A DNA stretch of 64,000 bases from Chitinophaga pinensis (GTDB lineage Bacteria > Bacteroidota > Bacteroidia > Chitinophagales > Chitinophagaceae): positions 22,519 to 86,518 of the forward strand of contig CAMCAY010000002.1 in assembly GCA_945872815.1 (NCBI GenBank). Direction: 5' to 3'. The notes below the pieces were generated by a model, which was given only the letters and a program-made list of their open reading frames with translations, was not told the origin of the DNA and searched no databases. Shown in pieces: positions 40,735-64,000 of the stretch. Both the position numbers and the translations under genes were made by a program. Positions within the stretch are counted from its first letter, which is position 1. Each line of letters opens with the position of its first letter.

Positions 40735-40754
40735 CCCACCATTTAAATGGTGGG
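40735..40754. repeat. REP-like perfect palindrome just past the 3' end of the Y1 transposase
   Basis: CCCACCATTTAAATGGTGGG, preceded by TTTATTAT and followed by CT; 9 nt from the tnpA stop. Confidence 0.85.
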
Positions 40755-40763
40755 CTTCTCAAT

Positions 40764-41165
40764 TTAAAATTTTATACCCTCTTCCTCTAAACTTTCGTAT
40801 TTTACTTTTTGTTTTTTGATGTATTCATCAACAGATTCTACTGCAAAATCACTTACTGAAAACGCAGCATAGCCTTTTTGCCATGCAAATTTTTCAAAAA
40901 TAAAATTGTGTTCATTGATGTAATGAGAAGAAGATCCTTTTATTTGTTTCATCACTTCAGCATAAGATTTTTTTGCATCCAGCATGAATAAGCAATGAAT
41001 ATGATCAGAAAGTCCATTTACAATTTTCAATTTGCAGCCTAATAGCCTGAATTCATCATATAAAAAGGGATAAAGATGTTATTCTAGATCAAGTGTGATA
41101 ATTGGTTGTCGATCTTTTGTTGCAAATACAGCATGAATCCAAACGTTATAAAATGAATTTGACAT
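40764..41165 (-). pseudogene. tnpA: IS200/IS605-type (RAYT-like) Y1 HUH transposase with an in-frame nonsense codon
   Basis: ATG 41165 MSNSFYNVWIHAVFATKDRQPIITLDLE*HLYPFL continues in frame into the tracked ORF (DHIH HUH motif, IKGSSS, FAWQKGYAAFSVS, YIKKQ). TAA at 41079-41081. Confidence 0.88.
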
Positions 41166-41266
41166 AGTAATGTAATATACATCTAGTAAAAATCTGTAAG
41201 AGGGTAAAAAACCAAATATTCAATGTTTTAATACGGATTAAATTAGATAAAATTCCCAGAATAATG

Positions 41267-41294
41267 TTAGCCCACCATTTAAATGGTGGGCTAA
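41267..41294. repeat. REP-like 28-bp perfect palindrome upstream of the Y1 transposase
   Basis: TTAGCCCACCATTTAAATGGTGGGCTAA; its core is identical to 40735-40754. Confidence 0.85.
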
Positions 41295-50489: not shown

Positions 50490-52682
50490 CTATCTTAACA
50501 AAATAACTGTTCCTTTTTTAGTAATTGTTTTTCCCGAGTAATCTAACCCTGACACAATCCAAACATAAGTACCGGTTGGCTGCTCCTTTTCATTACGTTT
50601 TCCGTTCCATCCTTCACGATTGCTATTTGTTGAAAACACTACATCCCCATACCTATTGAATATCTTGAAATAATCGAATCTCTTTAATCCAACATTAAAA
50701 GGTTTCAATACATCATTCAATCCGTCATGATTTGGAGTAAAAGCGGAAGGAATGTAAATATCAGGACCCTTGTATATTTTAATACTAATAGTGTCGAAAC
50801 TCTCGCAACCTTCCAGTGTAGAAGCTTTTAAATAATAAGTAATGTCACTGGAAACCGTTGCCACCGGATTGGAAATATTTGTTGCACTAAGTCCATAACT
50901 TGGCCACCACTGATAATTAATTCCTCCTACTGCCTGTAAATACAATGGTTGATTAGGTGCAATAATTGTATCCAGTCCTGCTAAGGCATCGGTTCCAAAA
51001 ACATTGATTGGGTCTGTTATTACATCAGATGGACAACCCTCACTTGAGATAGCATATAATGAAACAACATACTGACCATTGTTTGTATAAATATGTGTGA
51101 TTGGAGTTCCTTCATCCAAAGTATTGTCACCAAAATTCCAATGCCATTCATCAATGCCTATTGAAGTTGAGGTTTCATTGGCTGTAAAATGAACCGGCAA
51201 AAATTTACAAGTATCGCTGAAATGCATTTCTATTCTTGGTTTATCTGCAACATAAACTGTTTTAGTTATTGGAGTTGCCATACATGAACTTAAACCGGTT
51301 GAAGTTGTAACTAAAGTAACCTGGTGAGGTCCGGGATTAAGAAAAACATGCGTTGGGTTTTTGATTGTTGCAGGAAAGCTGCTATCGCTATAGGTCCATT
51401 GCCAATAATTAACAGAGCCAACGCTTACTGTGGATTGATCATGAAAAATTGTAGGAGAACCTATACAAACTGAATCTGTGAAGTCAAAGTTGTTTACAGG
51501 TCTTTCATGAATGTTTATTGGTCTGCGTAAAGTATCGGATCGGCATCCCATTTTTGTGGTAACAACAAATTTTATATTTTTAATACCTCCAGTTACATAA
51601 GCTGTAGAAGAATTTTGTAATGTTGACGTGATACCAGCATTATCAAAATCCCAATACCATGAAAATAATGTATCTGTATTTGCTACTGAGGAATGATCAA
51701 TAAAATTAATTGTATTAGATGAGCAACTATCAGTAATTGAAAAATCAACAATGGGGCTGTTTCCTATGATTACTGATTGAGGAAACAACTCTTCACAACC
51801 ATCCGGACTTACTACTTTGTAAACAACATTATAGGTACCAGGTGATGAATAGATATGAACAGGATTAACATTGACTGAGTCTATGGGGCTTCCATCTCCA
51901 AAATTCCAGTATCTTTTTAGTGCATTAGAAAAACTGGAAGTTGAGTCAATGAAAGTAATAGGTTCATTCACACATTTTTTTTGTGTGGGTGAAAAATGAA
52001 AATAAGGAGTAAGTGTAGTACAAAATTTTTGAGTGTTATACAAGGCTCCTGTAGCTCCCGTAAAACCCCAGTAAACCAAGCTATTTCCTCCAAATACGGT
52101 TGCTACAAAATCTCTGGTTGCGTTAACTCTGGCTACGCCATCAAAAAAAACTCCCATGTTTTTTGTTGTTGCATTCCAAACAATTCGCAATAAATGATTT
52201 TGACAATCTTCGACATTATCACTGGTGGAAGATACCCTGGTAATAGGTGTAATGGTATTTGCCGATGAATGATTTACATCCCCATTTAATTGTATGGCAA
52301 TGTGATCATAAAATGGGTCGTTATCAGGACTAGAATTCTGATATGTATCCAATGTTACCGCTACGCCGGGACTTATTCCGCCATAGCCCATTCCAGCGCC
52401 CGTTCCTCCAACACTTGTACTGATGGGTTGAAGTACAAATGCAATTCCGTCTGCTCCATTTGCATCCGTACAACCTAAAAAAACTTGAAATGTAAAATCA
52501 AAAGATTGAGCCAAGTCTATTCTGTTATTATTCCAAACAGAACCTTTCATCGTTGGCGCATTGGGGGTCAATGTGTAACAGTGACAATTGTCTCTGGATG
52601 CATTTCCATTTATTGTATACTGTGCAATTCCTTCTTTACATAAAAATGAAATGATTGTTAATATCAGAAAAGCTATCCGCAT
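50490..52682 (-). CDS. T9SS type-B cargo: L-type lectin + about 4 PKD + Ig-like + CHU_C CTD
   Basis: GADGIAFVLQ and WGFTGATG lectin motifs; WNFGDG PKD motifs; CTD IYIPSAFTPNHDGLND...KKGTVILLR. Confidence 0.88.
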   Translation of the reverse strand: MRIAFLILTIISFLCKEGIAQYTINGNASRDNCHCYTLTPNAPTMKGSVWNNNRIDLAQSFDFTFQVFLGCTDANGADGIAFVLQPISTSVGGTGAGMGYGGISPGVAVTLDTYQNSSPDNDPFYDHIAIQLNGDVNHSSANTITPITRVSSTSDNVEDCQNHLLRIVWNATTKNMGVFFDGVARVNATRDFVATVFGGNSLVYWGFTGATGALYNTQKFCTTLTPYFHFSPTQKKCVNEPITFIDSTSSFSNALKRYWNFGDGSPIDSVNVNPVHIYSSPGTYNVVYKVVSPDGCEELFPQSVIIGNSPIVDFSITDSCSSNTINFIDHSSVANTDTLFSWYWDFDNAGITSTLQNSSTAYVTGGIKNIKFVVTTKMGCRSDTLRRPINIHERPVNNFDFTDSVCIGSPTIFHDQSTVSVGSVNYWQWTYSDSSFPATIKNPTHVFLNPGPHQVTLVTTSTGLSSCMATPITKTVYVADKPRIEMHFSDTCKFLPVHFTANETSTSIGIDEWHWNFGDNTLDEGTPITHIYTNNGQYVVSLYAISSEGCPSDVITDPINVFGTDALAGLDTIIAPNQPLYLQAVGGINYQWWPSYGLSATNISNPVATVSSDITYYLKASTLEGCESFDTISIKIYKGPDIYIPSAFTPNHDGLNDVLKPFNVGLKRFDYFKIFNRYGDVVFSTNSNREGWNGKRNEKEQPTGTYVWIVSGLDYSGKTITKKGTVILLR

Positions 52683-52715: not shown

Positions 52716-54653
52716 TTATCTAATGACGGTAACATCTCCTTTTCTCGTAAATCTGGTTCCATTTTTATCAACAACGTTTAGAATATAATAATACGTAGCG
52801 TCAGGTAATGGCATACTATTATGAGTTCCTTCCCAATTATTTTGATAATCTTTTGAATAATAAACCAATGAGCCGTATCTGTTATAAACTGTTGCCTCTA
52901 CATGATGAATACATGAAGCATCGAATACAATCCACTTATCATTATATCCATCATTGTTAGGAGTAAAAATTTTAGCAGGATTGAAGCAAGGTTGATTAAC
53001 AGTTAGTATCATTGAATCGGTTGAACTGCATCCAAAATCATTTTGAACAGTCAAAGTGTAGGTTGTTGTTTGATTAGGATTTGCAAAGGGAGTCAATGAA
53101 TTTGCACCAGTTAATCCGATGGTCGGGTTCCATAAATATGTTGTGCCCGTTCCGGAACCTTGTAAATATGTCCCTACACCTGCACTAATGCTTACACTTG
53201 GCCCTGCATTCGCATCTGAAGGAACAGGATTGACTGTTATACTTTGACTAGCAGATGAGATACAACCTGAAATAGTTGTAAATGTATAGGTAATTGCATG
53301 AGTTCCAATTCCCGCAATCTGAGGATTAAAAAATCCATTGGAAACATTTACCCCATTGCCTGAATACATTCCTGTACCTAATGCAATAAAAGAGACAGGG
53401 CTTCCTCCGGTTAATGCAAATGAAGGAGCATTTTCACAAACTGCACTTAATGGAGTTAATACAGCATTTGCATTTACACCCACTTCAATAGTTTTATAAA
53501 GAGTATCTGATACACAACCTTCCAATGTTGTTACTACAAATTTTATGTTCTTTGGTCCTGATAATGTATACAATGAAAAAGGATTAGGATCCGTTGATGT
53601 TTGTCCTGCATTATCTAAATTCCAAAACCACTGATTGATAGTTCCAAAATTTACATGTGAGGTATCAGTAAATTGTATTCCAAAATCATTGCAGTTTCCT
53701 GTAATTGAAAATCCTGCTAGTGGCTTGTCGGCAATGACTAATGTTTGAGGATACATTTGTTCACAACCATCCAATCCAACAACGGTATAGGTGACATTGT
53801 ATGAACCCGCGGAAGAATAAGTATGAACCGGATTTATATTTATTGAATCAATAGGACTTCCATCACCAAAATTCCAATATCTTTTTAAAACAATTCCATT
53901 AAAGCTGACGGTGGAATCATAAAATGTAATTGGCGTATTTGCACATCTTTTCTGTGTGGAAGAAAAATAAAAAGCCGGAGTCAATGGAGTACAGAATTTC
54001 TGTAAATTATGCAAAGCACCAGTTGCTCCTGTAAAACCCCAATATACCATACTATTTCCGCCCAGCACATTTGTAACAAAATCAAATTCAACATTTAATC
54101 TTTCTTGATTGTCAAAATATACAATCATATTTTTTAACAAAGCATCCCATATAACAGTTAGGTAATGATCCTGACAATCTTCGACATTATCGCTAAATGC
54201 AGAAATCGGAGTTAATGGAGTGATCGTATTGGCATTAGCGTGATTCACATCACCGTTCAACTGAATGGCAATATGGTCATAAGATGGATCATTCGCAACA
54301 TCAGTGTTTTGATAGGTATCTAACGTAACCGCTATTGCTGGCGAAATTCCTGCGTAACCCATACCACTTCCCGTACCACCTACACTTGTGCTGATTGGCT
54401 GCAAAACAAATGCAATGCCATCCGCACCATTGACATCCGAACAACCTAAAAAAACTTTAAATGTAAATTCAAAAGACTGATTAAGGTCAATTTGATTATT
54501 GTTCCAAACAGTTCCGGATTTTGTTGCTAAATCAGGTGTTAATGTATAACAATTACATGAGGTTTGCGTTGCATTTCCATTCACTGAATATTGAGCTGTT
54601 GCAAACTGATAACATAACAATAATAGAAAAATAAATTTTATTTTTTTCATCAA
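52716..54653 (-). CDS. T9SS type-B cargo paralog: L-type lectin + 2 PKD + Ig-like + CHU_C CTD
   Basis: Same lectin head as its neighbour; CTD FTPNNDGYNDKW...RKGDVTVIR. Confidence 0.88.
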   Translation of the reverse strand: MMKKIKFIFLLLLCYQFATAQYSVNGNATQTSCNCYTLTPDLATKSGTVWNNNQIDLNQSFEFTFKVFLGCSDVNGADGIAFVLQPISTSVGGTGSGMGYAGISPAIAVTLDTYQNTDVANDPSYDHIAIQLNGDVNHANANTITPLTPISAFSDNVEDCQDHYLTVIWDALLKNMIVYFDNQERLNVEFDFVTNVLGGNSMVYWGFTGATGALHNLQKFCTPLTPAFYFSSTQKRCANTPITFYDSTVSFNGIVLKRYWNFGDGSPIDSININPVHTYSSAGSYNVTYTVVGLDGCEQMYPQTLVIADKPLAGFSITGNCNDFGIQFTDTSHVNFGTINQWFWNLDNAGQTSTDPNPFSLYTLSGPKNIKFVVTTLEGCVSDTLYKTIEVGVNANAVLTPLSAVCENAPSFALTGGSPVSFIALGTGMYSGNGVNVSNGFFNPQIAGIGTHAITYTFTTISGCISSASQSITVNPVPSDANAGPSVSISAGVGTYLQGSGTGTTYLWNPTIGLTGANSLTPFANPNQTTTYTLTVQNDFGCSSTDSMILTVNQPCFNPAKIFTPNNDGYNDKWIVFDASCIHHVEATVYNRYGSLVYYSKDYQNNWEGTHNSMPLPDATYYYILNVVDKNGTRFTRKGDVTVIR

Positions 54654-55259: not shown

Positions 55260-57245
<1,986 letters not shown>

Positions 57246-57520: not shown

Positions 57521-58462
57521 ATGAAAAACACCAACAACATACTAGATCTGGCAAGCAATGTGCCGCTCATGTACAATGAAGTGGAAGTGCTGCAGGATAT
57601 TGAAAGAAATGTACCCGGTTCGGTAAAATACAGCATCAAACGCATCCGAAAGCAGCCTCATTGGAATATCGAAGATATGGGCGTATTGGAATACCATATT
57701 AGTGAGCAAAACCCTGCTGAAAATTATATTGAACTGAGATTTTGTGTTGCCGGAAATTTTTATTGTAAAGAAAAAGAAAGTGAATGCAACTATTGTAAAT
57801 TCAATGCCTCGGGCACATGTGTTGAGAAAATTGAGAGTGTGGATGTGTTGAGTTTTACATACAGTCCGACTTATCTTCAGCAATTTGCGAAGGCCCATAA
57901 AAATGAAGAAAGTTTGTTTGAAAAAGTTGTGTCTTTTTCTCATACTCAATCCTTTTCTAAAACCACTTCGCTATGCTCCAAAACAATCAGTGCGGTGCAA
58001 GCTCTTTTGAATCATCCTTATACTGACACCAAGGAAAATATTTTCATCAATGCCCAAACGCAAATCATCTTATTGTATAGTACAGATTGTATGTTGGGAG
58101 AAAAAGCAGATGAGCAATTTAACTGCAAATTTTTGACCAATGCTGATGATCGTGAAAAAATAATAAAAGCCAGAGAAGTGCTCTTGCAGCATATCGGAGA
58201 ACCCATTACCATCAAGGCTTTGAGCCGAAAAGTGGCTATCAACGAATGTTATTTAAAAAAGGGATTTAAAGAAATTTTTGGCACTACCATTTTTGATTTC
58301 TATCAGGGGCAACGCATGGAACACGCAAAATATTTGTTGTACGAAAAAGGCCTCAGTGTTACGGAAGTCTCTTCTATGTTGGGCTATTCATCCATTTCGC
58401 ATTTCAGCACTGCTTTTAAAAATCATACCGGGATTAAACCATGTGAGTTGTTGGGGAATTAA
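57521..58462 (+). CDS. AraC-family regulator with Cys-rich N-terminal domain
   Basis: C-terminal double HTH (ITIKALSRKVAINECYLKKGFKEIFG...VTEVSSMLGYSSISHFSTAFK); N-terminal Cx6Cx6Cx2Cx7C. Confidence 0.9.
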   Translation: MKNTNNILDLASNVPLMYNEVEVLQDIERNVPGSVKYSIKRIRKQPHWNIEDMGVLEYHISEQNPAENYIELRFCVAGNFYCKEKESECNYCKFNASGTCVEKIESVDVLSFTYSPTYLQQFAKAHKNEESLFEKVVSFSHTQSFSKTTSLCSKTISAVQALLNHPYTDTKENIFINAQTQIILLYSTDCMLGEKADEQFNCKFLTNADDREKIIKAREVLLQHIGEPITIKALSRKVAINECYLKKGFKEIFGTTIFDFYQGQRMEHAKYLLYEKGLSVTEVSSMLGYSSISHFSTAFKNHTGIKPCELLGN

Positions 58463-58466
58463 AAGG

Positions 58467-58636
58467 AAGTCAAAATTCATAAGTAAAAATTCAAAACTAA
58501 AAAAGAATAGCGCCGATCCGCGACCGGTGAAAAAAAAAGAAAAAGGACTTTGTCCTTCTATTAGCATTTTTGAAAAAAAATTTAATTATTACAAATTCTT
58601 TATTATCCCACGGTTTAAACAGTGGGCTAGAAAAAC
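58467..58636 (+). repeat. Left ~170-bp composite direct repeat (DR-L)
   Basis: About 88% identical to 60807-60975 by hand alignment (64/66 over the last 66 nt). Contains a heptad tract, TAGCGCCGATCCGCGACCGGTG, AGGACTTTGTCCT and ATCCCACGGTTTAAACAGTGGGCTAG. Confidence 0.92.
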
Positions 58637-58713
58637 GTTTAAACAGCAACACGGTTTTAACCATTGAACAAGCGGAGCGAATTAAACCCTTGAACGTTGA
58701 ACTCGCTGCAGCA

Positions 58714-60624
58714 CTAATCCTTTATCAACCGAACAGAAAACCCTACTACTTTATTGAAGTTAAACCTGTGTATATCTAAACTTGTGCTACTAAGATAACG
58801 ATACCATGCAAAGGATGCATTGCTTTCAGTAGAACTCCACCAATACCCAAAATTTCCAACATTACTAAAGTAACCACTACTGAATCTACGGCCGCCGGGA
58901 AGTGCACCAAAACCACTGCTGTTAGTAGCTCCTGTATTGGGACTATTCCAATTTGTTGTTGATTTTAACATCCCTCCAACAGTAGTGTTCTGCCAGCCAC
59001 TTAACGTAGTGTCTGCACTTGGTTCTAAAAATTTTACTATTTTATTCCATTCACCATCTGTGGGAACATGCCATCCTATTGGAGCCAATCCCCTGGGATC
59101 ATTTACTGCAAACCAGTTATATAGTTTTCCATATTGCCAGTAATTCGCACTGTCATTGTTATACCAGCACCACGCACCGGTTGTAAGGTTTGCCCATTGA
59201 ATGGTATCAGTAACTTGAGGAATAGGATCTCCATTGCGATATGTTGATACATCGAGATTTTTATTGTCCCAAATTTGTGAGCCGATGGTGATTTGTGTTG
59301 GAAGAATTGTATCAACAGGACAAGGCCCCCAATGTGGCAAACCATTACACAAGGTAAGTGTTTGCCCATTAGTACCTGGACTAACGGTTACCCATACACT
59401 ATCTTTCCAGTACAACATTTGTCCATTAATAGTACCATTTTGAAAGCCATTGCCCGGAGGACCTTGCACACCTTGCAACCCCTGCGGGCCGGCAACACCA
59501 CTGTCTCCTTTATCTCCCTTCTCTCCTTTTGGGCCATTGGCTGCATACATCGCATAAGGCACACTCATCAGCTGTTGCGTACCAAGATCTACATATCCAT
59601 TACCCAAATCCATCTGCACCTGTAAAAACTTATTGGTATTAGCCCAATTGATAGATGCAAATGTGCCTTGTGTAGCTGTGCCTTTTCCTAAAACAGTATT
59701 GATTAATCCATGACCGTTGGTAGTGAGTGCATGTACTTCCTGATATTCCACACCACCCAATGCAGAATCTTTATGCAACGTAAACTGCGCTGTTACATTG
59801 GCGTTAGTCATAATCTGCCCCGATGCATTTCTAATTACCGCCTGATACGGAATGCCCGGTGGTACTGGCTTTGATATAGTATCTGTGTTGGGATTGTTTG
59901 TTGTTTGACCTGTGTATAATGCAGTGATTTCATCTTGAGTGAGGGCGCGGTTGTAGATAGCTATGTCATCAATTTTTCCAGAAAACCAGCAGTTATATGT
60001 TCCTGCTCCACCTCTTCTTCCAAATCTAAGAGGTATTGAACTTGTCCCTATATTTCCCATTAAACTTATTGAATCTAATTTAATACCATCAAGATAATAT
60101 CTTACAATATTTCCGTTAAATGTTGCTGTTACATTGTACCATTTATTTGCAATGTTTCCTGCAGATCCTAAATGAAAGTTGTCACCGATATTACCTATAT
60201 GAAAAATTCTTCCAGAATTTCCTCCAAGATAAATTTCATATCCACCATACCATGCTCCATCAACAATTTTTGAAATTATTGCATGTTCATCAATTGGAGA
60301 ATTAAAACTCCATAAATCAGAATTGAACCACGCAGAAATTGTATAAGCACTTGAAACAGTAATATTTGAAGAAGATTGGACTTCAATATAATTGCTATTC
60401 CCATTAAATAGATAAGATTTCCCAATGTTTCCAAACCTATCACTTGTCAAAGTTGCACCGTAAACTATTCCATTATTCCCATTCCCACTTTCATCATTCG
60501 CATTGCCATTAAAAGGCCACCATCCCACCAAGCCATTCGTTGGAACATAAGATGGAATATTGTTTTGTGCGAAAATTTGAATCGAACTAAATAAACAAAA
60601 AAGGAATAAACAAAGCTTGTTCAT
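58714..60624 (-). CDS. Secreted mosaic protein: LamG/ConA-like + YQAVIRN domain + collagen-like GXY + FISUMP (Fib_succ_major) domain
   Basis: Signal peptide; GLVGWWPFNGNANDESGNGN and GKIDDIAIYNRAL (LamG); about 10 GXY triplets; IGSQIWDNKNL, YGKLYNWFAV, GWHVPTDGEW, GYWWSSTE, GFSVRLIKD (FISUMP). Confidence 0.85.
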   Translation of the reverse strand: MNKLCLFLFCLFSSIQIFAQNNIPSYVPTNGLVGWWPFNGNANDESGNGNNGIVYGATLTSDRFGNIGKSYLFNGNSNYIEVQSSSNITVSSAYTISAWFNSDLWSFNSPIDEHAIISKIVDGAWYGGYEIYLGGNSGRIFHIGNIGDNFHLGSAGNIANKWYNVTATFNGNIVRYYLDGIKLDSISLMGNIGTSSIPLRFGRRGGAGTYNCWFSGKIDDIAIYNRALTQDEITALYTGQTTNNPNTDTISKPVPPGIPYQAVIRNASGQIMTNANVTAQFTLHKDSALGGVEYQEVHALTTNGHGLINTVLGKGTATQGTFASINWANTNKFLQVQMDLGNGYVDLGTQQLMSVPYAMYAANGPKGEKGDKGDSGVAGPQGLQGVQGPPGNGFQNGTINGQMLYWKDSVWVTVSPGTNGQTLTLCNGLPHWGPCPVDTILPTQITIGSQIWDNKNLDVSTYRNGDPIPQVTDTIQWANLTTGAWCWYNNDSANYWQYGKLYNWFAVNDPRGLAPIGWHVPTDGEWNKIVKFLEPSADTTLSGWQNTTVGGMLKSTTNWNSPNTGATNSSGFGALPGGRRFSSGYFSNVGNFGYWWSSTESNASFAWYRYLSSTSLDIHRFNFNKVVGFSVRLIKD

Positions 60625-60681
60625 GTTTTGGCAATTGATATATAGCAAGATAATGATATTTTGTAAATTTTAATGCAAACC

Positions 60682-60733
60682 AGGACAAAGTCCCGGCAAC
60701 TTTAATTGAATCACCGGTCACAGACCGGCGCTA
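60682..60733 (-). repeat. Inverted partial copy of the composite repeat
   Basis: AGGACAAAGTCCC (12/13 to the reverse complement of 60883-60895) and TCACCGGTCACAGACCGGCGCTA (22/23 to the reverse complement of 60848-60870). Confidence 0.88.
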
Positions 60734-60806
60734 ATTGAAAAGTAAAAAGGAAAAAGTTAAAATTAAAACCTTAAACCAGCGCAGCGAATTGAACCAACAA
60801 AGTAAA

Positions 60807-60975
60807 AAGTAAAAATTTAAAAGTCAAAAATCAAAACTAAAACACTCTAGCGCCGGTCTGCGACCGGTGATAAAAAAGAAAAAGGACTTTGTCCTACCAA
60901 TTTCATTTTTGAAAAACAATTTAATTATTACAAATTCTTTATTATCCCACGGTTTAAACCGTGGGCTAGAAAAAC
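60807..60975 (+). repeat. Right ~170-bp composite direct repeat (DR-R)
   Basis: Copy of 58467-58636 with perfect palindrome CCCACGGTTTAAACCGTGGG at 60946-60965; abuts the ileS promoter. Confidence 0.92.
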
Positions 60976-60986
60976 CCTAAATTCAT

Positions 60987-60994
60987 TAACTTCG
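60987..60994 (+). promoter_or_regulatory. Probable -7 box of ileS
   Basis: TAACTTCG, one mismatch to TAnnTTTG, 40 nt before the ATG. Confidence 0.45.
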
Positions 60995-61034
60995 CGGCTC
61001 ATTTTAGGTTAAATCATCAAGCAGGACGAAGTTT

Positions 61035-64000
61035 ATGTCAATCAAGTACAAAGAATACCAACAGCTGAACTTACCCAATATTGGTAAGGAAATGTTACAG
61101 AAGTGGGAATTGGAAGCATCTTTTGAAAAAAGTATTTCCTTAAGGGAAGGGCAAAAGCCCTTTGTGTTTTTTGAAGGACCTCCCAGTGCCAACGGCATGC
61201 CCGGTATTCATCACGTGATTTCAAGAACTTTGAAAGACATGGTCTGCCGATACAAGACCATGCAAGGTTTTCAGGTAAAAAGAAAAGGTGGTTGGGATAC
61301 GCATGGATTGCCCGTAGAATTGGGTGTAGAAAAGCAATTGGGCATTACCAAAGAAGATATCGGTAAAAAAATATCTATTGAAGATTACAATAAGAAGTGT
61401 CGCGAAGTTGTGATGCAATTCAAAGATAAATGGGACGACATCACCCAAAAAATGGGTTATTGGGTTGACTTAAAAGAGCCCTACGTGACATTTGAAAACA
61501 ACTATATTGAATCGTTGTGGTGGTGTTTGAGCGAGTTGTTTAAAAAAGGCTACCTCTATGAAAGTGTCAGCATTCAACCCTACTCTCCTGCTGCGGGTAC
61601 CGGTTTATCTTCTCACGAACTGAACCAACCCGGAACATACAAAGATGTAAAAGATACCAGTGCAGTGGTGATGTTTAAAGTGAAAAATGAAACGCTGAAT
61701 TCATCGTTAGTTCAATTGCTGGGTGAGTATGCGCAACAAGAATTCTTCTTAATGGCATGGACTACCACTCCATGGACATTGCCCTCCAATCTGGGTCTTA
61801 CCGTTGGGCCAAACATAGACTATGTATTAATTGAAACTTTCAATCCTTATACATTTTTACCTGTAAAAGTAGTTTTGGCGAAAGCCTTAATTGGTAAGTA
61901 TTTCAAAGCCGATGCAGAAAATTTACCGTTTGAAGATTTCAAAGAAGGTGATAAAATAATTCCCTGGAAGATTTTGGCGAGTTTTACCGGTGCAGCATTA
62001 GAGGGCATTCAATACGAACAATTGCTTCCCTTTGAAGCCAACACTGTTGAAAAAATTCTTGAAGAAACCCCTGGCGCAGAACCCTTTAAAGTAATCACTG
62101 GAGATTTCGTTACCACAGAGGACGGAACCGGTATAGTGCACACTGCGCCTGCGTTTGGAGCTGATGATTACAAAGTAGGAAAGAAAAACAACATCGGTAT
62201 TTTAACATTGGTAGATAAACAAGGAAAGTTTGTGGAAGGTGTTGGAGAATTCAGCAATCGTTATGTAAAAAATTATAAAGACGAAGCTGATTACGTTGAT
62301 GTGAATGTGGACATTTCAGTAAAACTGAAAAAAGAAAATCGTGCCTTCAAAGTAGAAAAATACGAACACAATTATCCGCATTGCTGGAGAACTGATAAGC
62401 CCATCATTTATTATCCACTCGATGCATGGTTTATTAAAACAACTGCCGTAAAAGACAGAATGGTGGAATTGAATAAAACCATTCAATGGAAACCTGCGAG
62501 CACAGGCACGGGAAGATTTGGCAACTGGTTGGAAAACATGGTAGACTGGAACCTCAGCCGCAGTCGCTATTGGGGAACTCCTTTACCCATCTGGAGAACA
62601 GAAGACGGAGCAGAACAAAAATGTATCGGTTCTGTAGCAGAGTTACGAAACGAATTGAAAAAATCATACGAAGCAGGTTGTTGGCAATCCAACGAAAAAA
62701 CTGCTGAAGAATATATCCAACACATCAGCTCCGATTTGCACAAACCTTTTGTAGATGACATCATCTTAGTGAGTGATTCTGGAAAGCCCATGCGTCGGGT
62801 TCCCGATTTGATAGATGTTTGGTTCGACAGTGGTGCGATGCCTTATGCACAATGGCATTTCCCATTTGAAAACAAAGAAACTTTTCAAAATAATTTCCCT
62901 GCCGATTTTATTGCAGAAGGCGTAGATCAAACTCGCGGATGGTTTTATACTTTACATGCATTGGCAGTATTGTTGTTTGACAGCGTAGCTTATAAAACAG
63001 TTGTGAGCAATGGTTTGGTTTTAGACAAAGCCGGCAACAAGATGAGCAAACGCCTGGGCAATGTGGTAGATCCTTTTGAAACCATTGATAAATATGGTGC
63101 AGATGCCACCCGTTGGTATTTAATCACCAATGCATCTCCCTGGGACAGTTTGAAATTTGATGAAGAAGGAATCAAAGAAGTACAAAGAAAATTCTTCGGT
63201 ACATTATACAATACATATCAGTTCTTCGCTTTGTATGCTAATGTAGATGGATTCAATTATACAGAAAATAAAATCCCATTAAAAGATCGTCCGGAAATAG
63301 ATCAGTGGATCATTTCATCATTGAATACGCTGATAAAAAATGTAGTGGAAAATTTTGATGCATATGAACCCACTCAAGCCGGACGTGCAATTGAAGAGTT
63401 TGTAGACTCGCAATTAAGCAATTGGTATGTAAGATTGTGCCGCAGGCGTTTTTGGAAAGGAGAATACGAACACGATAAAAAATGTGCATACCAAACATTG
63501 TATGAGTGCTTGGAAACATTGAGTCAGCTTATTGGACCAATCGCTCCATTCTTTGGAGAATGGTTGTTCAATAATTTGAATGCGGTAACCAACAGATTTG
63601 AAAACAACTCTGTTCATCATACATTATTTCCTATTGCGGATGCTTCTGCCATACATCCAGATCTGGAAAAAAGAATGCAATTGGCACAGGACACTTCTTC
63701 ATTGATTTTATCCATCAGAAAGAAAGTAAATATTAAGGTAAGGCAACCATTACAAAAAGTTTTTATTCCTGCCCTTGATAAGGAGATGATAAAAAATATC
63801 CAATTAATAGAAGATATTATTAAATCAGAAACCAATATCAAGGAAATAGAAATTTTAGATGCCAATAATGATTTTATTAGAAAAAAAGCTAAAGCCAATT
63901 TCAAAACATTGGGTAAAAAATTAGGAGCAAAAATGAAATGGGCTGCTTCCGAAATAGAGAAATTTGATAATATTTTGATAGAAAAAGTTCAAAATGGAGA
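61035..64000 (+). CDS. ileS: Isoleucine-tRNA ligase, type 2 (runs off window end)
   Basis: Manual translation: FEGPPSANGMPGIHH (HIGH), GWDTHGLPVE, AWTTTPWTLPSN, GTGIVHTAPAFG, DWNLSRSRYWGTP, KMSKRLGN (63039 onward). Frame is the same at the checked start, middle and end; absent from the track because there is no stop. Confidence 0.97.
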   Translation, partial: MSIKYKEYQQLNLPNIGKEMLQKWELEASFEKSISLREGQKPFVFFEGPPSANGMPGIHHVISRTLKDMVCRYKTMQGFQVKRKGGWDTHGLPVELGVEKQLGITKEDIGKKISIEDYNKKCREVVMQFKDKWDDITQKMGYWVDLKEPYVTFENNYIESLWWCLSELFKKGYLYESVSIQPYSPAAGTGLSSHELNQPGTYKDVKDTSAVVMFKVKNETLNSSLVQLLGEYAQQEFFLMAWTTTPWTLPSNLGLTVGPNIDYVLIETFNPYTFLPVKVVLAKALIGKYFKADAENLPFEDFKEGDKIIPWKILASFTGAALEGIQYEQLLPFEANTVEKILEETPGAEPFKVITGDFVTTEDGTGIVHTAPAFGADDYKVGKKNNIGILTLVDKQGKFVEGVGEFSNRYVKNYKDEADYVDVNVDISVKLKKENRAFKVEKYEHNYPHCWRTDKPIIYYPLDAWFIKTTAVKDRMVELNKTIQWKPASTGTGRFGNWLENMVDWNLSRSRYWGTPLPIWRTEDGAEQKCIGSVAELRNELKKSYEAGCWQSNEKTAEEYIQHISSDLHKPFVDDIILVSDSGKPMRRVPDLIDVWFDSGAMPYAQWHFPFENKETFQNNFPADFIAEGVDQTRGWFYTLHALAVLLFDSVAYKTVVSNGLVLDKAGNKMSKRLGNVVDPFETIDKYGADATRWYLITNASPWDSLKFDEEGIKEVQRKFFGTLYNTYQFFALYANVDGFNYTENKIPLKDRPEIDQWIISSLNTLIKNVVENFDAYEPTQAGRAIEEFVDSQLSNWYVRLCRRRFWKGEYEHDKKCAYQTLYECLETLSQLIGPIAPFFGEWLFNNLNAVTNRFENNSVHHTLFPIADASAIHPDLEKRMQLAQDTSSLILSIRKKVNIKVRQPLQKVFIPALDKEMIKNIQLIEDIIKSETNIKEIEILDANNDFIRKKAKANFKTLGKKLGAKMKWAASEIEKFDNILIEKVQNG

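What the first reader, a model, noticed from the sequence alone, without database searches (positions are those of the whole stretch)
58467..60975. Single accessory gene bracketed by ~170-bp direct repeats: candidate REP-bounded gene cassette
Seen: 58467-58636 and 60807-60975 are about 88% identical (offset 2339-2340) and enclose exactly one gene, the LamG-collagen-FISUMP mosaic, in an otherwise core gyrB-araC-ileS neighbourhood. The repeats are far longer than a target-site duplication. They are built from REP-type hairpins, and no integrase is adjacent. Inference: the gene plus one repeat behaves as a ~2.34-kb module that entered, or can leave, through recombination at the composite repeat. 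This could be RecA acting on the repeats or an HUH enzyme of the family seen at 40.8 kb acting in trans. If so, it is an integron-like route for swapping surface-protein genes between REP-marked slots. I do not know of a described system with this layout.
Basis: partly seen in the sequence, partly recalled or inferred. Interest (0 to 1): 0.78.

Follow-up and report, generated by a model that had tools for sequence, protein, structure and literature searches.

The report
Old gene islet with palindrome-mosaic ends
The two ~170-base repeats are real, but they are decaying copies of a patchwork of transposase-associated palindromes at the two ends of an old, vertically inherited single-gene insertion between araC and ileS, with no evidence that they work as a gene-swapping cassette system.

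Summary
58467-58640 and 60807-60979 are direct repeats, 87% identical, flanking one minus-strand gene for a secreted LamG/collagen/FISUMP protein. Each repeat has an A-rich heptad tract and three palindromes. hp1 flanks a REP-associated tyrosine transposase gene in another contig. hp3 belongs to a 28-nt palindrome found across Bacteroidota and flanks the IS200-like pseudogene at 40.8 kb. So "REP-type" is right.

The cassette reading is not supported:
- Relatives with 77-78% AraC identity have araC and ileS only 45 nt apart, with no repeat.
- Islet-bearing genomes keep the old araC end (AATTCATTAA, 60980-60989) beside ileS. This points to one ancient insertion into araC's last codons.
- The gene stays in this slot down to 54% protein identity.
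- Orthologous repeat copies (89-92%) are closer than paralogous ones (82-87%) and share side-specific substitutions. Stems are decaying.
- No single-repeat site, no other slot and no further full copy was found.

The slot is variable: some strains add a toxin-antitoxin pair or an SRAP gene. I read the repeats as a BIME-like mosaic copied to both islet ends. Interest is low to moderate.

The parts
57521..58462 (+). araC-family regulator gene. Its last three codons (GGG AAT TAA, 58454-58462) are the left copy of the duplicated araC end.
   Evidence: Pfam HTH_18/HTH_AraC. C-termini compared across relatives: ELLGN* here, ELLIH* in empty-site relatives, ELLMH* in L148.
58467..58640 (+). Left direct repeat (DR_L). 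It forms the left terminal ~170 nt of the islet.
58467..58507 (+). A-rich heptad tract of DR_L.
   Evidence: Sequence. Similar tracts lie at both flanks in L148/L149. High word depth in metagenomes suggests tracts of this kind are dispersed.
58508..58530 (+). hp1 (left): REP-type palindrome TAGCGCCGATCCGCGACCGGTGA, with one stem-breaking G>A change.
   Evidence: The same hairpin flanks a RAYT gene in L125.
58541..58559 (-). hp2 (left): GGACAAAGTCC followed by a T-run on the minus strand. It is terminator-like and lies downstream of the LamG/FISUMP gene.
58607..58626 (.). hp3 (left): CCCACGGTTTAAACAGTGGG, with one stem-breaking change.
58669..58706 (+). X and Y satellite modules between DR_L and the gene end. 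Copy number varies between strains, and SRAP replaces them in L001.
58714..60627 (-). Cargo gene: secreted protein with a signal peptide, Laminin_G_3, a collagen-like G-x-y stretch and a FISUMP (Fib_succ_major) domain.
59981..60399 (-). LamG-domain segment that is replaced by an unalignable allele in L001. It is absent from the populations of runs X2-X4.
   Evidence: BLAST gap between window 58716-59980 (92.9%) and 60400-63561 (92.5%). Depth is 0 at 60086-60212 in X2-X4 and 0-2 at 60213-60339, and contigs skip from 59970/59980 to 60431-60470.
60683..60733 (-). Inverted partial copy of the mosaic (hp2' then hp1'), just upstream of the cargo gene.
   Evidence: (I2, I3)
60734..60806 (+). A-rich tract A', X module (60776-60795) and the start of the second A-rich tract. 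This is the same arrangement (A-CCTTA-X) as the left flank of L139-type strains.
60807..60979 (+). Right direct repeat (DR_R). It forms the right terminal ~170 nt of the islet. hp1 is at 60848-60870, hp2 at 60883-60895 and hp3 at 60946-60965.
60980..60989 (+). Relic of the ancestral araC 3' end (AATTCATTAA), which marks the right insertion junction.
   Evidence: Identical to the last 10 nt of araC in the empty-site relatives L140-L146. BLAST of 60980-61034 reaches 10 nt into araC of L143 and L140. The same relic is present in L001 and L148/L149.
60990..61034 (+). ileS leader of 45 nt, homologous to the entire araC-ileS spacer of empty-site relatives.
61035..64000 (+). ileS. It runs off the end of the window.
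40735..41290 (-). IS200-like Y1 transposase pseudogene (40764-41165, one in-frame TAA). It is flanked by hp3-like palindromes CCCACCATTTAAATGGTGGG at 40735-40754 and 41271-41290.

Best explanation
The 2.5-kb segment 58463-60979 is an old genomic islet. It was inserted once into the last codons of araC, directly upstream of ileS, and has been inherited vertically since. The two ~170-nt direct repeats are its terminal stretches. Each repeat is a BIME-like mosaic: an A-rich heptad tract followed by three short palindromes (hp1, hp2, hp3). These palindromes are the kind recognised by HUH/Y1 single-strand transposases. hp1 plus hp2 match the REP doublet next to a RAYT gene. hp3 matches the palindromes that flank IS200-like TnpA genes across Bacteroidota.

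Shown: the mosaic sat on both flanks before the window and L001 lineages split, and the two copies have since diverged independently and are losing stem pairing.

Inferred: the second copy arose by local copying (gene conversion or unequal exchange) between the already similar A-rich/X satellites on the two flanks. This is preferred over fresh integration of a circle. Today the repeats are passive. At most they act as hairpin terminators or insulators; hp2 plus its T-run terminates the cargo gene on the minus strand. They do not act as recombination sites that move the gene.
For: 1. Empty sites. In L140-L146 (AraC 77-78%, IleS 87% identical) the araC stop is followed by 45 nt and then ileS, with no repeat.
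2. Insertion junction. The window, L001 and L148/149 all keep AATTCATTAA|CTTCGCG next to ileS, which is the araC end plus spacer of the empty site. araC itself carries a near-copy: ATGCATTAA in L148, GGGAATTAA here. This indicates a single insertion with a ~10-nt duplication.
3. Same slot throughout. This holds for L001 (protein 76%, both repeats present), for L002/L003 together with L139, and for L148-150 (protein 54%). In L148-150 the flanks share only A-rich/X modules (83 nt, 88%) and lack the hp1-hp2-hp3 composite.
4. Repeat age. Orthologous copies are 89.0, 89.9 and 92.0% identical; paralogous copies are 87.3 and 82.2%. Side-specific substitutions are shared between genomes, and stem-breaking changes occur in wL and 1R.
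5. Copy number. There are two composite copies in the window. There are none in 1.1 Mb of fetched loci outside this slot. The source-like metagenome X1 holds only DR_L, DR_R and one extra hp1-hp2 module.
6. Hairpin identity.
   - L125 has a RAYT that passes the NCBIfam REP_Tyr_transpos cutoff, with hp1+hp2 upstream and three inverted hp1 copies downstream.
   - The window Y1 pseudogene is flanked by hp3-like palindromes.
   - 26 hp3 loci carry a 45-59% homologue of that gene; in most, a palindrome lies within about 250 nt.
   - The hp3 core occurs in more than 119 genome stretches against about 0.5 expected by chance (my own estimate from 596 Gb).
Against: - The step that put the composite on both flanks was not observed. 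Two independent insertions of a mobile unit, or two losses in L148, are about equally parsimonious.
- The repeats lie exactly at the islet termini, and the added cargo (the TA pair in L139) is also bracketed by repeats of the local satellite. A recombinational entry route would produce this pattern too.
- The complete genome was not available, so genome-wide copy number rests on one metagenome's unitigs.
- Only Logan unitigs could be examined, and these cannot reveal rare excision products.
- The terminator or insulator role is inferred from sequence alone. No RNA data were available.
Confidence: 0.62

Rival explanations
1. First reader's model. Gene plus one repeat is a 2.34-kb module that integrates into, or excises from, a resident copy of the repeat. 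The enzyme would be RecA, or an HUH/Y1 enzyme acting in trans on the hairpins. This would give an integron-like exchange of surface-protein genes between REP-marked slots.
For: - The repeats are direct, terminal to the islet and made of Y1-associated hairpins.
- They share a 42-nt identical stretch that could support RecA exchange.
- The slot is variable: TA and SRAP additions occur, and the TA pair is bracketed by A-X-Y repeats in L139.
Against: - Empty sites contain no repeat, so there is no resident site to recombine with.
- No single-repeat allele appeared among about 15 related contigs.
- The gene is seen only in this slot. More distant homologues sit in paralog clusters without these repeats.
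- Side-specific substitutions are conserved between genomes, and the stems are decaying.
- No further composite copy was found.
- The only Y1 gene in the window is a pseudogene as assembled.
Confidence: 0.08
2. The ~125-165-nt unit from hp1 to hp3 (CTAGC...GCTAG ends) is a REPIN/MITE-like non-autonomous element. It was mobilised in trans by a Y1 transposase and landed independently in the two A-rich tracts. On this view the direct repeat is two insertions of one mobile unit, not a local duplication.
For: - The unit shows presence/absence among close relatives at the left flank. L002 has it; L139-type strains (X4, X15 contigs) have A-CCTTA-X instead.
- It folds with a closing stem and three arms, z = -3.1.
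- Both copies follow an A-rich tract and are followed by AAAAAC.
- The hp1-hp2 doublet occurs at a third locus in X1 and next to a RAYT in L125.
Against: - Only two full copies are detectable, both in the same islet.
- The two ends are different palindromes, unlike a REPIN.
- The bases immediately 5' of hp1 differ between left and right: GAA against CTC/CGT.
Confidence: 0.2
3. The islet is the stump of a site-specifically integrated element whose integrase was lost. On this view the ~10-nt duplicated araC end is the att core, and the 170-nt repeats are later decoration.
For: The insertion restores a near-normal araC 3' end and leaves the displaced end at the other junction. This is the classical footprint of integration into a gene's 3' end.
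Against: - No integrase or other mobility gene is present in any of the islet versions.
- A transposase-type target duplication or illegitimate recombination explains the 10-nt repeat equally well.
Confidence: 0.1

Closest known systems
BIMEs / REP clusters of enterobacteria (bacterial interspersed mosaic elements)
   Same: Both are extragenic mosaics of short palindromic units separated by fixed spacer motifs. They sit at gene ends and between convergent or divergent genes, in mixed orientations. The inverted hp2'-hp1' copy at 60683-60733 next to direct copies fits this. Hairpins followed by a T-run can act as terminators. Comparison from general knowledge; anatomy.
   Different: Different phylum and different sequences. 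The full composite is present only twice rather than in tens to hundreds of copies. It is embedded in A-rich heptad and X/Y satellites. Binding of IHF or gyrase was not tested.
REP/REPIN-RAYT systems (Nunvar 2010; Bertels & Rainey 2011, PMC3116915; Quentin 2018, PMC6006769)
   Same: The palindromes are the ones that flank Y1 HUH genes. hp1 flanks a protein that passes the NCBIfam RAYT model in L125; its motifs NHVH and YLHDNP resemble subclass 2.6, which is found mostly in Bacteroidetes. hp3-like palindromes flank the window's Y1 pseudogene and lie beside its homologues in the other loci.
   Different: A REPIN is two inverted copies of one REP, present in many copies. Here two different palindromes make up one unit with two copies. 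The ends read (A/C)TAGC, not the GTAG tag. The window Y1 scores as an IS200-type TnpA, not as a RAYT. Its motifs DHIH/WQ/YIKKQK match subclass 1.2, which Quentin et al. described as generally lacking terminal hairpins.
Integron gene cassettes (attC-bounded single ORFs)
   Same: A single promoter-proximal ORF is bounded by structured, hairpin-forming repeats.
   Different: There is no IntI, attI or Pc. The repeats here are near-perfect palindromes in a long direct repeat on both sides of one gene. The cassette is not seen in other arrays, and empty sites have no recombination site.
REP-mediated RecA-dependent duplications and deletions in Salmonella/E. coli (from memory, not checked here)
   Same: Direct REP-containing repeats could in principle recombine to delete or amplify the intervening gene.
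   Different: No deletion or amplification allele was found. The copies are 13% diverged and carry side-specific substitutions conserved across genomes.

Membership tests
REP / RAYT-associated palindromes | Short (20-40 nt) extragenic palindromes | tested here: met
   hp1 has an 8-bp stem and hp3 is a 20-nt palindrome lying within a 28-nt consensus palindrome. All are intergenic.
REP / RAYT-associated palindromes | The same palindromes flank a Y1 (HUH) transposase gene | tested here: met
   hp1: the L125 RAYT has hp1 upstream and three inverted copies downstream. hp3-like: both sides of the window Y1 pseudogene; hp3 lies close to its homologues in most of 26 other loci.
REP / RAYT-associated palindromes | Many copies dispersed in the same genome | tested here: inconclusive
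   The window holds only 4 hp3-type and 3 hp1 copies. The X1 metagenome shows about 2-3 copies of each at this likeness. The whole genome was not available. In other genomes there are up to 7 hp3 copies per 8-kb locus.
REP / RAYT-associated palindromes | Conserved 5' GTAG (or CGTC) tetranucleotide tag (Di Nocera 2013, PMC3733652) | tested here: not met
   The ends read ATAGC/CTAGC for hp3 and TAGCG for hp1. These are related to the tag but not identical to it.
REPIN | Two inverted copies of the same REP separated by a short spacer, forming one long hairpin | tested here: not met
   The unit joins two different palindromes, hp1 and hp3, and only a 5-6-bp closing stem is predicted.
Integron gene cassette | Adjacent IntI tyrosine recombinase with attI and Pc | tested here: not met
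   The neighbours are Mfd, two lectin/PKD/CHU_C genes, gyrB, araC and ileS. In relatives a DksA/TraR-type zinc-finger gene, rbfA and ftsX follow ileS.
Integron gene cassette | Same cassette found in different arrays or positions | tested here: not met
   All close homologues (54-100%) are in the araC-ileS slot. Homologues at 39-40% identity sit in FISUMP paralog clusters without the repeats.
Integron gene cassette | attC architecture (R''-L''/L'-R' with extrahelical bases) | not testable with these tools
   No attC model was available. By eye the hairpins are near-perfect palindromes.
Campbell-type integration at a resident repeat | Unoccupied sites carry one copy of the repeat | tested here: not met
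   L140-L146 have a 45-nt spacer with no repeat. L147 has a 144-nt spacer with an unrelated palindrome.
IS200/IS605 family transposase (window gene at 40.8 kb) | Y1_Tnp fold with HUH and catalytic Tyr motifs, scoring above the curated cutoff | tested here: met
   NF033573 scores 65.6 bits against a cutoff of 55. The DHIH and YIKKQ motifs are present, but one in-frame stop at codon 29 interrupts the gene.

The most novel reading that the evidence does not exclude
The araC|ileS junction of this freshwater Ferruginibacter-like clade is a satellite-marked cargo slot. The A-rich/X/Y tracts and the Y1-type palindromes embedded in them would serve as recombination substrates, either for homologous exchange with circular or linear donor DNA or for HUH-mediated single-strand events. 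Single-gene or two-gene cargos (LamG/FISUMP, Gp49-HTH toxin-antitoxin, SRAP) would be added one at a time. Each cargo would then end up bracketed by direct copies of the local repeat, giving a recombinase-free analogue of a cassette array.
Probability: 0.1. Interest if true: 0.6.

Novelty: new member of a known kind. Interest (0 to 1): 0.27.

Why it matters
For the finding itself, the main value is negative. A striking pair of long direct repeats around a surface-protein gene need not mean a mobile cassette. Here comparative data date the repeats and place the real insertion junction elsewhere.

Three by-products may interest specialists:
1. A 28-nt perfect palindrome (ATAGCCCACGGTTTAAACCGTGGGCTAT) is conserved across Bacteroidota and lies next to IS200-like subclass-1.2 TnpA genes. 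The 2018 survey (PMC6006769) described that subclass as generally lacking terminal hairpins.
2. This is a worked example of BIME-like mosaics built from the cognate hairpins of two different Y1 families in Chitinophagaceae.
3. The araC|ileS junction is variable, with at least five allelic states in lake and river populations, and domain-level allele replacement occurs inside the LamG/FISUMP gene.

Tried and rejected
- Exact look-ups of the window's own LamG and AraC proteins and of P0001 found nothing. The rest of the 115-kb source contig could therefore not be read.
- The metagenome scan with the hp1-hp2 pattern gave 16 stretches. Only L125, and weakly L124, were truly similar; the rest were chance matches.
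- Rfam gave nothing at gathering threshold and only sub-threshold noise at E<=1. No tRNA or tmRNA was found. I considered a tRNA T-arm resemblance in the X and 18-nt repeats and dropped it.
- A full-text search for the palindrome found no paper.
- No RNA runs were available.
- The odd X4 joint 60829->58667 looked at first like a circle or tandem junction. It is the L139-type allele, A-CCTTA-X-Y-X-Y-LamG.
- The 'skips 163' joint in X15 is the araC-A-X-Y-TA junction of the same allele.
- The apparent split gyrB in L139 and L144 is caused by scaffold N-gaps.
- I found no TAnnTTTG Bacteroidetes-type promoter in DR_R upstream of ileS by eye. The sigma-70-type hits are at chance level.
Full report
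**1. Observation**

The repeat is real. The repeat finder and MAFFT place the two copies at 58467-58640 and 60807-60979. Identity is 151/173 = 87.3% with one single-base indel, at an offset of 2339/2340. Component motifs have essentially no chance matches in shuffled sequence.

The copies bracket one ORF on the minus strand, 58714-60627. It encodes a signal peptide, a Laminin_G_3 domain, a collagen-like G-x-y stretch and a Fib_succ_major (FISUMP) domain. The neighbours are gyrB (55260-57239, -), an araC-family gene (57521-58462, +) and ileS (61035 onward, +).

Each repeat is a mosaic made of these parts:
- an A-rich tract with roughly 7-nt periodicity
- hp1 (TAGCGCCGGTCTGCGACCGGTGA)
- an A-run
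- hp2 (GGACTTTGTCC), which on the minus strand is a hairpin followed by a T-run and so looks like a terminator
- a 51-nt AT-rich spacer
- hp3 (CCCACGGTTTAAACCGTGGG)

There is an inverted partial copy (hp2'-hp1') at 60683-60733. Short X modules lie at 58669-58688 and 60776-60795, and a Y module at 58689-58706.

**2. What the hairpins are**

I estimate about 0.5 expected by chance in 596 Gb. Almost all hits are Bacteroidota. In those loci the core is the centre of a 28-nt perfect palindrome, ATAGCCCACGGTTTAAACCGTGGGCTAT. It often sits beside other small palindromes and is sometimes in tandem arrays.

In the window, the only other hp3-type palindromes (CCCACCATTTAAATGGTGGG) lie at 40735 and 41271. 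They flank the Y1 gene at 40764-41165 on both sides. That gene is 133 codons with one in-frame TAA at codon 29. It passes the NCBIfam IS200/IS605 cutoff but not the RAYT cutoff. Its motifs DHIH/WQ/YIKKQK match subclass 1.2 of Quentin et al. 2018 (PMC6006769). A local tblastn found 45-59% homologues of this protein in 26 of the hp3 loci. In most of them a palindrome lies within about 250 nt of the gene end, and in a few cases on both sides.

*hp1.* The one truly similar hit of a metagenome scan, L125, shows hp1+hp2 upstream of a 182-aa Y1 protein and three tandem inverted hp1 copies downstream. That protein passes the NCBIfam REP-associated tyrosine transposase cutoff. Its motifs are of the Bacteroidetes subclass 2.6 type.

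No Rfam family matches.

**3. Comparative evidence on the slot**

The organism is a freshwater Ferruginibacter-like member of the Chitinophagaceae.

*Close relatives.* L001 (AraC 97%, IleS 98%) has the order ileS, repeat, LamG/FISUMP, SRAP, repeat, araC, gyrB. Both repeats are present, and an extra SRAP gene replaces the X-Y modules.

L002/L003 (gene about 93% nucleotide identity) have the left repeat followed by a Gp49/HTH toxin-antitoxin pair. L139 (AraC 96%) shows the same pair directly after araC, bracketed by A-X-Y satellite copies.

Unitigs from river metagenomes X4 and X15 show this L139-type allele with A-CCTTA-X-Y-X-Y next to the LamG gene and no hp composite on that side. X6 carries the SRAP allele.

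*More distant holder.* L148-L150 (AraC 81%, IleS 90%) carry a 54%-identical LamG/PTL_trimer/FISUMP gene in the same slot. Both flanks share A-rich plus X-like modules (83 nt at 88%), and the araC side adds 55-nt and 18-nt tandem repeats. One different hp1-class hairpin is present, but the hp1-hp2-hp3 composite is not.

*Empty sites.* In L140-L146 (AraC 77-78%, IleS 87%) the araC stop codon is followed by 45 nt (CTTCGCGGC...) and then the ileS ATG, with no repeat at all. L147 (AraC 80%) has a 144-nt spacer carrying an unrelated palindrome.

**4. The real insertion junction**

In the window, L001 and L148/149, the 45-nt ileS leader is preceded by AATTCATTAA (window 60980-60989). These are exactly the last 10 nt of araC in the empty-site genomes.

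araC itself ends in a near-copy: ATGCATTAA in L148 and GGGAATTAA here. So the islet (58463-60979) went into the last codons of araC, once, in the common ancestor of the window clade and L148. It left a ~10-nt duplication. That duplication could be a transposase target duplication or an att core; I cannot tell which.

The 170-nt repeats are the terminal stretches of the islet, but they are not the insertion footprint. The unoccupied site has nothing for them to recombine with.

**5. Age and state of the repeats**

On a common alignment, orthologous copies are more alike than paralogous ones:

| Comparison | Identity |
|---|---|
| window-left vs L001-left (orthologous) | 89.0% |
| window-left vs L002-left (orthologous) | 89.9% |
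| window-right vs L001-right (orthologous) | 92.0% |
| window-left vs window-right (paralogous) | 87.3% |
| L001-left vs L001-right (paralogous) | 82.2% |

Left-specific and right-specific substitutions are shared between genomes. Examples are GTGAAAAAAAA against GTGATAAAAAA, and GAAAAAAAATTT against GAAAAACAATTT. The duplication therefore predates the split of these lineages, whose flanking genes are 84-93% identical at the DNA level. There has been no homogenisation or re-formation since.

Stem-breaking changes without compensation occur in hp1 and hp3 of the left copy and in hp1 of L001-right. These look like decaying relics, not maintained recombination sites.

**6. Copy number and other contexts**

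The full composite occurs only twice in the window and nowhere outside this slot in 1.1 Mb of fetched loci. In the metagenome that holds the window almost completely (X1), only the left copy, the right copy and one further hp1-hp2 module on a 6.5-kb unitig map to the repeat at 85% likeness or better.

LamG/FISUMP homologues at 39-40% identity sit in tight clusters of FISUMP paralogs with T9SS-type proteins and lack these repeats. No allele with araC, one repeat, then ileS was seen. The only read-level data were Logan unitigs, which break at repeats, so rare excision products cannot be excluded.

**7. Interpretation**

The best-supported reading is an old, vertically inherited single-gene islet whose two ends carry copies of a BIME-like mosaic of Y1-transposase-associated palindromes.

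Shown:
- ancestral empty site
- single insertion with the araC-end duplication
- persistence in one slot
- repeats older than the lineage split and decaying
- hairpin families tied to Y1 genes

Inferred:
- How the composite came to both flanks. I favour local copying between the already similar flanking satellites, because only two full copies exist and both are in this islet. The alternative is two insertions of a REPIN/MITE-like unit. That is not excluded, because the unit shows presence/absence at the left flank among close strains and folds as a closed three-arm structure.
- Present function is at most termination or insulation. No expression data exist.

A weaker version survives at low probability: this junction is a satellite-marked hotspot where cargos accumulate, each bracketed by local repeats.

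**8. Novelty and score**

REP/BIME mosaics and RAYT/IS200-associated hairpins are known kinds. This is a new member in Chitinophagaceae with an unusual two-family composition. Interest for the finding as posed is low to moderate (0.27). The phylum-wide hp3 palindrome next to subclass-1.2 TnpA genes, and the allelic diversity of the slot and of the LamG domain, are the more reusable observations.

Noticed in passing
window 40735-41290; loci L011, L013, L014, L018, L023, L025, L057, L058, L062, L081, L087, L122 and others: A 28-nt perfect palindrome, ATAGCCCACGGTTTAAACCGTGGGCTAT, is spread across Bacteroidota (>119 genome stretches). In 26 loci a homologue (45-59% identity) of the window's IS200-like Y1 gene is present; in most, the palindrome lies within about 250 nt of it. 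The window has a compensated variant, CCCACCATTTAAATGGTGGG. The gene's motifs fit subclass 1.2 of Quentin 2018, which was reported as generally lacking terminal hairpins.
   Followed up: partly
window 40764-41165 (-): The Y1 transposase gene has a single in-frame TAA at codon 29 of 133. It is a pseudogene as assembled, or else a sequencing error or recoding.
   Followed up: partly
window 59981-60399; L001 3200-3600: The LamG-domain part of the cargo gene is replaced by an unalignable allele in L001, while both sides are about 93% identical. The window allele has zero depth at 60086-60212 in lake/river runs X2-X4, and several unitigs bridge 59970/59980 to 60431-60470 with other inserts. This is domain-level allele swapping at conserved motif-coding edges.
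   Followed up: partly
window 60467-60593: The segment encoding the N-terminal motif GLVGWWPFNGNANDESGNGNNG has 260-550x word depth in four metagenomes against a baseline of about 3-10x. It is shared by very many LamG-type genes and species.
   Followed up: no
L139 8943-9894; L002 1990-2758: A Gp49 (HigB-like)/HTH_3 toxin-antitoxin pair sits between araC and the LamG flank in some strains. It is bracketed by direct copies of the A-rich + X + Y satellite.
   Followed up: partly
L001 4876-5560: An SRAP (SOS-response-associated peptidase) gene replaces the X-Y modules between the left repeat and the LamG gene. The same allele is seen in river run X6.
   Followed up: partly
L147 2524-2667: Another relative has a 144-nt araC-ileS spacer holding a different palindromic repeat (CATGGTTCGTG...CACGAACCATG, repeated). 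The same junction has been hit by a different small element.
   Followed up: no
L148 6504-6630; L149 4911-5160: Tandem 18-nt (x4) and 55-nt (x3) satellites lie directly downstream of the LamG/FISUMP gene in the 54%-identity relative. They are related to the X module of the window.
   Followed up: no
window 60798-60836: The A-rich heptad tract (AAAGTAAAAAGTAAAAATTTAAAAGTC...) maps at 130-180x depth. It occurs inside several long, higher-coverage contigs of other genomes in X4, so this tract type is a dispersed intergenic motif in these communities.
   Followed up: no
window 50490-52682 and 52716-54653: Two tandem lectin/PKD/CHU_C (T9SS) paralogs are about 72% identical over 190-300-nt stretches. 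Relatives L140-L146 and L001 have one such gene and L139 has two, so this is a copy-number polymorphism next to the slot.
   Followed up: no
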